Shown here: piece by piece, positions 22,788 to 25,700 of the stretch | How positions within the stretch are numbered: position 1 is the first letter of the stretch | Layout of the letters: every line of letters starts with the position of its first letter | Assembly: GCF_013315695.1 (NCBI RefSeq) | Contig: NZ_CP054353.1 | From: Escherichia coli | GTDB taxonomy: Bacteria; Pseudomonadota; Gammaproteobacteria; Enterobacterales; Enterobacteriaceae | Length of the DNA: 64,000 bases | Direction: 5' to 3' (one strand) | Made by a program: the position numbers

Positions 22788-25700
22788 TTAAACAAAAAAA
22801 CGAAGCAAGCATACGCCTGATGGCGGTCCAAAAAAAAGAGTCATCTTGCCTAAGAGTATTGGCAGGATGGTGAGATTGAGCGACAATCGAGTTACACCGT
22901 CGCTTAAAGTGACGGCATAATAATAAAAATATGAAATTCCTCTTTGACGGGCCAATAGCGATATTGGCCATTTTTTTAGCGCAACATCTGCGGCAAATTC
23001 CCTTCTCCATACAGGTGTAGTGCACCGACCGCGACCACATATCGCCCCGGCGGCATGGCGCGTAATTTATCCCGCCAGGCGAGATTTCGCTGATGCATCA
23101 GCACATCGTACAGCGACTGACTGAACGTATTGGGCAGCGTTATATCATTATTTTGCGGCGGTGCATTCAGCCACCAGCTCATCATTTGTTGCAGCAACCG
23201 TGCATTGGTGTGCCAGTGGGTCAGCGTATCGTCCAGCAGTGCCAGTCCGTTGTCAGGGAGCTGGAGCAACATGGCAATCTGGTTTTCTGCCCCTTCCAGT
23301 TCAATCACGGGTTTATGTTGTTGCTTCGCCGCCTGCAATAGCTGGTAATCGATACCGTATTCTGCCCGCAGCCCCAGTTTTTGTGCCTGCCTCGCCTGAA
23401 GAACCATCGCGATTTGCCACAGCGGTTGGGTAGAAAAGAGTGAGGTAGAAATGCCCATCTCCTGGCTAATGTGCTGCAGGTTTTGGAGTTGCTCCTCGCT
23501 AATGCGCTCTTCCAGTGCCTCGCAGGCAGGCAAATTGGCAAAAGGCGTATCGCTGGTGGAAACATCCGCCTCGACGATCAGCGCATCGGCGTTTTTGAGC
23601 TTTTTGAGCAAACGGGTGGGCAGGGGAGCCATATCGTGGCTACCCATATGAATACTGCCGAGCAGATGAAAATGGCGATTGCCGGGAAGAGAGATATCGA
23701 TAGCAGGCCAGGTGTAATGATTACCGCGCAGCGCGGCCCAAAGCGTTTTTACCCGGTACAACAGATCCATACGACCTCCCTTTGTGAAATATCATGCTAG
23801 CGCGCGGGGAGGGATGGCGCAAATGGAGTTATGAGGCTTGTTCAGTGGTAGCTTAAATATGATCGAAAAATTGTTTTTGCTTTGAAACGAAAGACTGCAC
23901 GGGTGTTGGTGGCGTCAAAATCGCCGAGGCGTTCCCTGAAGGCCGGGGCAGCCCACATGGATGTGGGCTGAGGGCGCGTTTTACAGGGATAATGAGATGG
24001 ACGCTCCAGATTTTACGGTATCAAAGTACCAGACTGGATCGTTGCAATACGTCCTGAAAAATTAGGAGCGTCCACATGAAAGTATCAACTCTTGGTATCG
24101 ACCTGGCAAAGAACGTTTTTCAGCTTCATGGTGTCGATCATGAAGGCCATACTATTTTGCGTAAAAAGCTCACCCGGGCTAAGTTTGTTCAGTTTGTGAT
24201 TCAACTGGAACCTTGTCTGATTGGCATGGAAGCCTGCTCATCCAGTCATTATTTTGCGCGATTATTCACCCGCTATGGTCATGAGGTAAAACTCATACCT
24301 CCGCAGTATGTGAAGCCTTATGTGAAAACGAACAAGACGGATGCAGCAGATGCTGAAGCAATCTGCGAAGCGGTAACCCGTCCGAATATGCGTTTTGTTC
24401 AGATAAAAACCGAAGAGCAGCAGGCCGTTTTAGCGTTACACACTGAACGGGGAATACTTATCCGTGAGCGGATTGCCTGTGCCAATAGTTTAAGAGCCAC
24501 ACTTGCTGAGTTTGGTATTACGATTGCGGCCGGACAAAGCCATTTAACACGTGAGCTGCCAGCCATTCTGGAGGATGGCGAAAATGGTTTATCTCCCTTT
24601 GTCAGAACCAGCATCTACAGACAGTCTAAACATATCCGGGAACTTGAAGAACAAGTTAAACAGGTAGAAGAAGCTCTGGCCTCCTGGTATAGAACGCAGG
24701 AAGCCTGCCAGAGAATGGCCAAGATCCCGGGGGTTGGCATGCTAACGGCCACTTATGTGGTAGCAGCAGTGGGTAATGCCCGACAATTCAGTACCGCAAA
24801 GCAGTTCGCTTCATGGCTGGGGCTGACACCAAAGGAACATTCCAGCGGCGGGAAACAGCAACTGGGAGGGATCAGCAAACGTGGAGATGGATATTTCCGA
24901 TACCTGCTGGTTCACGGCGCACGCGCACTTACCGCCTGGGTCAACCGAAACGGCGCGGTTGAGGAGAATTCCTGGCTTCAGGGACTCCTTGAGCGGAAGC
25001 ACTACAATGTAGCTGTTGTCGCCATGGCGGCAAAAACAGCGAGGATCATGTGGTCAATGTTGTCACACAATACTGAATATCAACCTCGGCAGCTCGCCTG
25101 ACACAAGGTCAGTCAATCTGACGAGGTGCTGAAAAAAAGTTAACGTCCTGGTAGGTGCAGGTGACTTCAGAAGATGGCAAAACAGGTAAGACCGCAGGCA
25201 GGATACACCGAGAGGTAACAAGGGCAAGTTAGCCCGTAGAGGATGATTGGTACCTGCCTGGCGGATTTCATCATGGTTCGGGATAAAAATCCCATCAGAA
25301 ACCGGATATATGGCTGCACCTACCCGTTTTATTACATAACTGAAGAAAGCATTGCATTCCGGGAGCGTCCATATATGTTACCTCGCGCCCGACCCGGTAG
25401 CCGCAAGGGATAAGCCGAGGGTACCGCGCAGCGGCGATTTTGTTCGCCAGAGCCCGGGGGTGCAGGGGGCGGCGGCGATTGGCCGCCCCCTGCGCGCTCC
25501 TTGCGCCAGTCACTTTATATGGCATGACTCATAAAAGGAGCGCAACAAGAACTGGATCTCACAAACGCATTAAGTAAATACCAATCACTCTTTCGGTTTA
25601 AACCTCAGCAACCGGTTGGCGTTACTCACTACGGTAATCGACGAGAGCGCCATTGCCGCTCCGGCAACCACCGGGTTAAGCAGCGTACCGGTGAACGGCC

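What the first reader, a model, noticed from the sequence alone, without database searches (positions are those of the whole stretch)
22894..22977. ChiX sRNA recovered in the ybaK-ybaP gap
The 84-nt sequence matches the known Hfq-dependent sRNA ChiX (5' hairpin, AU-rich region, intrinsic terminator). It is a known feature that ORF-based annotation would miss.
Basis: established knowledge. Interest (0 to 1): 0.2.

Follow-up and report, generated by a model that had tools for sequence, protein, structure and literature searches.

The report
Known ChiX small RNA gene, confirmed

Summary
Confirmed. Window 22894-22977 (+) matches Rfam RF00368 (sroB, the Rfam name for ChiX/MicM/RybC) end to end: 81.1 bits against a gathering score of 44, E 2.8e-10, + strand only. 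It is 83/84 identical to the curated chiX gene (b4585) of E. coli K-12. It lies in the same place, between ybaK and ybaP, which are both on the opposite strand. The 121 bases upstream, including a TTGGCA-17-GACAAT promoter, are identical to K-12.

The RNA folds as described: 5' hairpin, A/U-rich linker with four AAN motifs, 12-nt seed, and GC-rich terminator hairpin plus U7. Fourteen homologues from nine or more enterobacterial genera keep the synteny. Both helices are kept through compensatory changes.

The seed is a perfect 12-bp complement of the chiP Shine-Dalgarno region, and it pairs 12+8 bp with the chbB-chbC decoy. Both sites were read from an E. coli genome (isolate AF3) that is identical to the window over the 7.3 kb compared.

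The only difference from K-12 is A37U (window 22930). It is a minority allele, falls at an "N" position of an AAN motif, and lies outside the seed.

This is an already known feature. Interest is low.

The parts
22859..22887 (+). chiX promoter-like site: -35 TTGGCA (22859-22864), 17-nt spacer, -10 GACAAT (22882-22887). It ends 7 nt before the RNA 5' end.
   Evidence: Consensus scan. Identical to K-12. TTGGCA and GAGCGACAAT are kept in 10 of the 11 Enterobacteriaceae homologues, and in the 11th (Enterobacter sp. Ag1) with one change in each block.
22894..22977 (+). chiX gene (ChiX = SroB = MicM = RybC), an 84-nt Hfq-dependent small RNA.
   Evidence: Rfam RF00368 at 81.1 bits, full length. 83/84 identical to K-12 b4585.
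22897..22915 (+). 5' hairpin (RNA nt 4-22, 8 bp, 3-nt loop).
   Evidence: MFE fold. All 8 pairs show changes on both sides across 15 distinct homologues, and 96% of cells are paired. Individual folds show different stem sequences with the same hairpin.
22919..22930 (+). [quoted passage not shown] 22930 (nt 37) is T here and A in K-12.
   Evidence: Read directly from the sequence. The four AAN motifs of ChiX and their role in distal-face binding are from PMC7987339.
22938..22949 (+). Seed UCCUCUUUGACG (RNA nt 45-56).
   Evidence: Perfect 12-bp complement to chiP leader positions -19 to -8 in isolate AF3 and K-12: dG -21.2 kcal/mol against -10.5 +/- 2.7 for shuffled targets, 0 of 1000 as good. 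The seed was invariant in all homologues, but they were retrieved with a 15-mer that contains 11 of its 12 bases.
22950..22977 (+). Rho-independent terminator: hairpin GGCCAAUA/UAUUGGCC (22950-22969), A, then U7 (22971-22977). The U-tail is the presumed site for the proximal face of Hfq. The last 2 nt overlap the ybaP stop codon.
   Evidence: 100% of cells paired, with one compensatory A-U to G-C change in Rahnella and Pantoea. ybaP ends at 22976.
22293..22772 (-). ybaK (Cys-tRNA(Pro) deacylase), the upstream divergent neighbour. It defines the locus and is not part of the RNA.
   Evidence: Synteny in 14 of 14 homologous loci.
22976..23770 (-). ybaP (TraB/GumN family), the convergent downstream neighbour. 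It defines the locus and is not part of the RNA.
   Evidence: Synteny in 14 of 14 homologous loci.

Best explanation
This is the chiX gene. It encodes the 84-nt Hfq-dependent (class II) small RNA ChiX, transcribed from its own promoter in the ybaK-ybaP gap and ended by its own Rho-independent terminator.

Shown here at the sequence level:
- The RNA has a 5' hairpin, four AAN motifs, a single-stranded 12-nt seed, and a terminator hairpin with a U7 tail.
- The seed is a perfect complement of the chiP Shine-Dalgarno region in an E. coli genome (isolate AF3) identical to the window over the 7.3 kb compared.
- The same region plus AUGAAAU pairs with the chbB-chbC intergenic spacer.

Taken from published work on K-12 and Salmonella:
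- Without chitosugars, ChiX sits on Hfq (U-tail on the proximal face, AAN motifs on the distal face) and pairs with the chiP leader. This blocks translation and promotes Rho-dependent termination, so the chitoporin ChiP is not made.
- When chitobiose induces the chb operon, the chbBC spacer pairs with ChiX as a decoy and triggers its decay. The chiP-5'UTR fragment ChiZ also pairs with ChiX and sponges its activity. chiP is thereby de-repressed.

The single A37U difference from K-12 is expected to be neutral or nearly so.
For: - Family match: Rfam sroB, full length, 81.1 bits against a gathering score of 44.
- Identity to the characterised gene: 83/84 to curated K-12 chiX, with the whole 121-nt upstream region identical.
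- Fold: z = -3.8, with the terminator called independently.
- Homologues: 14 Rfam-confirmed copies in Citrobacter, Enterobacter, E. albertii, Pluralibacter, Superficieibacter, Rahnella, Serratia, Pantoea and others. All lie between ybaK and ybaP, antisense to both.
- Covariation on the model-fitted alignment: 98.2% of cells paired, 9 of 16 pairs changed on both sides, 0 of 500 shuffles as high, and slid controls at 24-43% paired.
- chiP pairing: 12 bp over the Shine-Dalgarno sequence in AF3 and K-12, 0 of 1000 shuffled targets as good.
- chb decoy pairing: the spacer is identical in AF3 and K-12, 12+8 bp, dG -29.2 kcal/mol.
- Independent recovery of the target: the 15-mer scan also returned the antisense sequence directly upstream of ChiP orthologues in Enterobacter sp. 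Ag1, an Enterobacteriaceae MAG and Yersinia artesiana.
- Published mechanism: PMC4098024, PMC7815308, PMC7987339.
Against: - Nothing found here contradicts it.
- No expression, Hfq-binding or regulation data exist for this strain, so function is inferred from near-identity to the characterised K-12 gene.
- The covariation alignment was fitted to the model's structure, which biases counts towards pairing.
- Seed invariance among the homologues is partly by construction, because they were retrieved with a 15-mer that contains most of the seed.
- A37U is untested experimentally.
Confidence: 0.97

Rival explanations
1. The stretch is only regulatory or terminator DNA of the neighbouring protein genes (a ybaP terminator, or ybaK promoter sequences), not a separate RNA gene.
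For: The hairpin at 22950-22969 abuts the ybaP stop codon, and ybaP converges on it. The region upstream of 22894 must also hold the ybaK promoter.
Against: On the - strand the hairpin is followed by CGTCAAAGAGG, not a T run, and the scan calls no - strand terminator there. The covariance model scores the + strand only. A conserved promoter precedes the RNA 5' end by 7 nt. The 5' hairpin covaries, which is unexplained by a terminator role. The K-12 gene is curated and experimentally studied.
Confidence: 0.01
2. It encodes a small protein starting at the AUG at RNA nt 38-40 (window 22931).
For: An ATG opens a 29-codon frame, MKFLFDGPIAILAIFLAQHLRQIPFSIQV.
Against: The stop codon lies about 40 nt beyond the terminator, so the transcript carries no in-frame stop. 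No Shine-Dalgarno sequence precedes the AUG. The AUG is absent in the Serratia and Pantoea homologues. Conservation follows base pairing, not codons.
Confidence: 0.01
3. It is a ChiX allele with altered behaviour: A37U changes Hfq distal-face binding or decoy sensitivity enough to shift chiP regulation in this lineage.
For: U37 is a minority allele. Only the first three of 60 evenly spaced ranks among 5422 genomes are 100% identical to the 136-nt query, which puts it at roughly 3-5%. It adds one A-U pair to the chb decoy duplex: 12+8 against 12+7 bp, dG -29.2 against -28.1 kcal/mol.
Against: Position 37 is the free 'N' of the fourth AAN motif, so all four motifs are kept (sequence; PMC7987339). 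It lies outside the 12-nt seed. The same base occurs in E. albertii. The linker varies freely among genera. The predicted energy change is about 1 kcal/mol.
Confidence: 0.05

Closest known systems
ChiX (SroB / MicM / RybC), E. coli K-12 b4585; Rfam RF00368
   Same: Same locus, strand and length (84 nt). 83/84 bases identical, with identical promoter region, seed, terminator and AAN motifs, and the same complementarity to chiP and chbBC.
   Different: One substitution, A37U, in the A/U-rich linker (window 22930). Its ybaP-side neighbourhood differs: an IS110-family element replaces ybaQ, outside the RNA gene.
ChiX homologues of other Enterobacterales (Citrobacter, Enterobacter, Pluralibacter, Serratia, Rahnella, Pantoea)
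   Same: Same ybaK-chiX-ybaP synteny, the same AAAUUCCUCUUUGAC core (the 15-mer used to retrieve them), and a near-identical terminator.
   Different: Their 5' hairpin stems have different sequences, kept paired by compensatory changes, and their linkers differ in length and sequence.
Other class II Hfq sRNAs (e.g. MgrR)
   Same: Same architecture for binding Hfq: a U-rich terminator tail plus internal AAN/ARN repeats that use the distal face (PMC7987339).
   Different: Unrelated sequence, locus and targets. They are not members of RF00368.

Membership tests
ChiX / sroB (Rfam RF00368) | Covariance-model score at or above the curated gathering threshold, full length, on one strand | tested here: met
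   81.1 bits against 44, model positions 1-83 of 83, + strand only, E 2.8e-10
ChiX / sroB (Rfam RF00368) | Near-identity to the experimentally characterised K-12 chiX gene | tested here: met
   83/84 identical; the 121 nt upstream and 8 nt downstream are identical
ChiX / sroB (Rfam RF00368) | Location between ybaK and ybaP, antisense to both | tested here: met
   Window ORFs and RefSeq annotation; the same arrangement in 14 of 14 homologous loci
ChiX / sroB (Rfam RF00368) | 5' hairpin and Rho-independent terminator with a U-tail | tested here: met
   MFE fold with z = -3.8; terminator scan; covariation with 9 of 16 pairs changed on both sides and 0 of 500 shuffles as high
ChiX / sroB (Rfam RF00368) | Single-stranded seed complementary to the chiP Shine-Dalgarno region | tested here: met
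   12 contiguous Watson-Crick pairs with chiP -19 to -8 in isolate AF3 (identical to the window over the 7.3 kb compared) and in K-12; 0 of 1000 shuffled targets as good
ChiX / sroB (Rfam RF00368) | Complementarity to the chbB-chbC intergenic decoy | tested here: met
   12+8 bp, dG -29.2 kcal/mol, with the spacer identical in AF3 and K-12
Class II Hfq-dependent sRNA | Internal AAN repeats (four in ChiX) plus a 3' U-tail | tested here: met
   AAU AAU AAA AAU at nt 26-37 and U7 at nt 78-84, read from the sequence; the criterion is from PMC7987339
Class II Hfq-dependent sRNA | Physical binding to the Hfq proximal and distal faces; Hfq-dependent stability | not testable with these tools
   Needs Hfq co-immunoprecipitation or hfq face mutants; shown for the K-12 RNA in the literature
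ChiX / sroB (Rfam RF00368) | Expression as an ~84-nt transcript that represses chiP in this strain | not testable with these tools
   Needs a northern blot or RNA-seq and a chiP reporter; expected because the promoter and RNA are essentially identical to K-12

The most novel reading that the evidence does not exclude
The U37 allele of ChiX is carried by roughly 3-5% of complete E. coli genomes and by E. albertii. It may make the sRNA slightly more sensitive to the chbBC decoy through one extra base pair, and so tune chitosugar induction in this lineage.
Probability: 0.05. Interest if true: 0.15.

Novelty: already known. Interest (0 to 1): 0.08.

Why it matters
It matters only for annotation. 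ChiX is a textbook Hfq-dependent sRNA and one of the founding examples of regulation by an RNA decoy. Automated annotation (PGAP) of the matching genome leaves its gene out. Recovering it shows the scan can find real non-coding genes, but it adds no new biology.

Tried and rejected
- RNAalifold on a plain MAFFT alignment of 15 homologues found only the terminator helix. The 5' hairpin columns were misaligned because stem sequences and loop lengths differ. This was resolved by folding each sequence alone and by a covariance-model alignment.
- Unrestricted duplex folding of whole ChiX against long target stretches gave long, meaningless duplexes that unfold ChiX's own hairpins. It was repeated with only the single-stranded part, nt 23-58.
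Only 17 enterobacterial loci were used, so it is not a census of ChiX distribution.
- Searches failed for technical reasons (range one base too long; file lookup) and were repeated.
- The small-ORF reading, the neighbour-gene terminator reading and the opposite-strand reading were considered and rejected.

Full report
**Observation**

Reading the window at 22894-22977 and scanning all 64 kb on both strands against Rfam 15 gives two matches above gathering score. One of them is sroB (RF00368) at exactly 22894-22977 on the + strand. It covers model positions 1-83 of 83 and scores 81.1 bits against a gathering score of 44 (E 2.8e-10). sroB is the Rfam name for the RNA also called ChiX, MicM and RybC (PMC4098024).

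Folded alone, the 84-nt RNA has three parts:
- a 5' hairpin at nt 4-22;
- an unpaired stretch at nt 23-56;
- a GC-rich hairpin at nt 57-76 followed by A and U7.

The energy is -23.9 kcal/mol with z = -3.8, and none of 200 shuffles folds as well. The consensus scan independently calls the terminator at 22950-22969 (+). It also finds one promoter-like site, TTGGCA-17-GACAAT at 22859-22887, which ends 7 nt before the RNA start.

**Context and identity**

The flanking ORFs are ybaK (22293-22772, -) and ybaP (22976-23770, -). The ybaP stop codon overlaps the last two bases of the RNA. Window 19300-26600 is 100% identical over 7301 bases to E. coli isolate AF3 (NZ_OZ547117.1), a human blood-culture isolate from the UK.

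The curated K-12 MG1655 record annotates ncRNA chiX (b4585, 84 nt, +) in the same gap. An alignment of the whole gap shows one difference in 213 bases: window 22930 is T where K-12 has A, which is RNA position 37. The promoter region, seed and terminator are identical to K-12.

The stretch is present in 5422 of 5426 complete E. coli genomes. The exact U37 version is a minority allele. Only the first three of 60 evenly spaced ranks are 100% identical, so it is in roughly 3-5% of genomes. E. albertii carries the same base.

PGAP annotation of AF3 has nothing between ybaK and ybaP, although it annotates rprA elsewhere in that genome.

**Related sequences**

Most were outside Enterobacterales; these were not examined and are presumed to be chance matches. 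Of the 17 enterobacterial loci, 14 carry a full-length sroB match at 61-90 bits. In all 14, the RNA lies between ybaK and ybaP homologues and is antisense to both.

A plain MAFFT alignment let RNAalifold see only the terminator helix. Folding each homologue alone shows the same 5' hairpin built from different stem sequences, for example CCGUCGC/GUGACGG, CCGACGC/GCGUCGG, CCGGGGC/GCCCCGG and CCGAAGG/CCUUCGG.

I then built a covariance model from five well-aligned sequences and realigned all matches to it. On that alignment:
- 98.2% of cells are paired;
- 9 of 16 pairs have changes on both sides;
- 0 of 500 shuffles reach the observed values;
- slid controls reach only 24-43% paired;
- all 8 pairs of the 5' hairpin covary;
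- the terminator has one A-U to G-C compensatory change.

This alignment is fitted to the structure, so the counts lean towards it. The alignment-free folds say the same thing.

The -35 and -10 hexamers are conserved across the Enterobacteriaceae homologues; Enterobacter sp. Ag1 has one change in each block.

**Mechanism**

The published model, established in K-12 and Salmonella, runs as follows:
- ChiX constitutively represses chiP, the chitoporin gene, by pairing with its leader.
- The chitobiose-induced chb mRNA acts as a decoy that pairs with ChiX and causes its decay (PMC4098024).
- ChiX pairing also increases Rho-dependent regulation of chiP, and the chiP 5' fragment ChiZ sponges ChiX (PMC7815308).
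- ChiX is a class II sRNA. It uses the proximal face of Hfq through its U-tail and the distal face through four AAN motifs (PMC7987339).

I tested the sequence-level requirements of this model. Neither target is in the window, so I read both from the AF3 genome.

- **chiP.** ChiX nt 45-56 (UCCUCUUUGACG, window 22938-22949) forms 12 contiguous Watson-Crick pairs with chiP positions -19 to -8, covering AGAGGA. The energy is -21.2 kcal/mol against -10.5 +/- 2.7 for shuffled targets, with 0 of 1000 as good.
- **chbB-chbC spacer.** It is identical in AF3 and K-12. It pairs 12 bp with the seed region and then 8 bp with nt 37-44, for -29.2 kcal/mol.
- **Independent recovery of the target.** Three enterobacterial 15-mer hits had no sroB match: Enterobacter sp. 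Ag1, an Enterobacteriaceae MAG and Yersinia artesiana. In each, the antisense sequence sits directly upstream of a ChiP orthologue (67-83% identical). The same scan therefore recovered both the sRNA and its target site.
- **AAN motifs.** They read AAU AAU AAA AAU at nt 26-37.

**The A37U difference**

Position 37 is the free third position of the fourth AAN motif, so all four motifs are kept. It lies outside the seed. It adds one A-U pair to the decoy duplex, worth about 1 kcal/mol. I expect it to be neutral, but this is inference.

**Rivals**

- **A terminator or promoter of the neighbouring genes.** On the - strand the hairpin has no T-tail, the models score only the + strand, and the 5' hairpin covaries.
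- **A small protein.** The frame from the AUG at nt 38 has its stop about 40 nt beyond the terminator, and the AUG is missing in Serratia and Pantoea.
- **A functionally altered allele.** This cannot be excluded, but it is unlikely for the reasons given above.

**Comparison, novelty and verdict**

Every testable defining feature of ChiX/RF00368 is met: model score, identity to the characterised gene, synteny, structure, chiP and chb complementarity, AAN motifs and U-tail. Expression and Hfq binding cannot be tested here.

The feature is already known. The interest is low and lies only in annotation completeness.

Noticed in passing
window 23843-25588 (transposase ORF 24076-25101, +): A 1746-bp segment carrying an IS110-family 'RNA-guided transposase' (PGAP name) replaces the 727 bp that hold ybaQ in K-12, between ybaP and copA. 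The full segment is found in only 173 of 5426 E. coli genomes. Any bridge-RNA-like non-coding end was not examined.
   Followed up: partly
window 22930: ChiX A37U is a minority allele, at roughly 3-5% of complete E. coli genomes by rank sampling. It is shared with E. albertii NBRC 107761 and E. coli SCPM-O-B-8794 (L117). It adds one predicted base pair to the chbBC decoy duplex.
   Followed up: partly
window 8423-8487 (+): The Rfam DnaX ribosomal frameshifting element (RF00382, 96.8 bits, full length) marks the dnaX gene in the window.
   Followed up: no
L045 1653-1667, L066 6706-6720, L044 1828-1842: In Enterobacter sp. Ag1, an Enterobacteriaceae MAG and Yersinia artesiana, the chiP leader carries at least 15 nt of perfect complementarity to ChiX (GTCAAAGAGGAATTT). 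This is longer than the 12 nt in E. coli. No sroB match was found in the short Yersinia locus, which holds only the chiP region.
   Followed up: partly
window 22829-22858: A block upstream of the chiX -35 (an A-tract followed by TCTTGC...AGTA) is conserved across Enterobacteriaceae in the divergent ybaK-chiX region. It could be an UP element, the ybaK promoter or a regulator site.
   Followed up: no
L127, L128, L129 (isolate AF3, NZ_OZ547117.1, 0.73-1.09 Mb): Gene order from chb/katE through fdn to hrpA runs in the opposite direction to K-12, relative to the chiX-chiP region. This indicates a large inversion. Many IS1A copies interrupt genes in this genome.
   Followed up: no
L128 49156-49263: PGAP annotates rprA as 'antisense_RNA' in AF3 but gives no feature for chiX, so its sRNA annotation is selective.
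   Followed up: no
L117 9403-9473 (+): There is an Rfam naRNA4 (RF02564, 72.6 bits) match a few kb from chiX in E. coli SCPM-O-B-8794. The window has no such match above gathering score.
   Followed up: no
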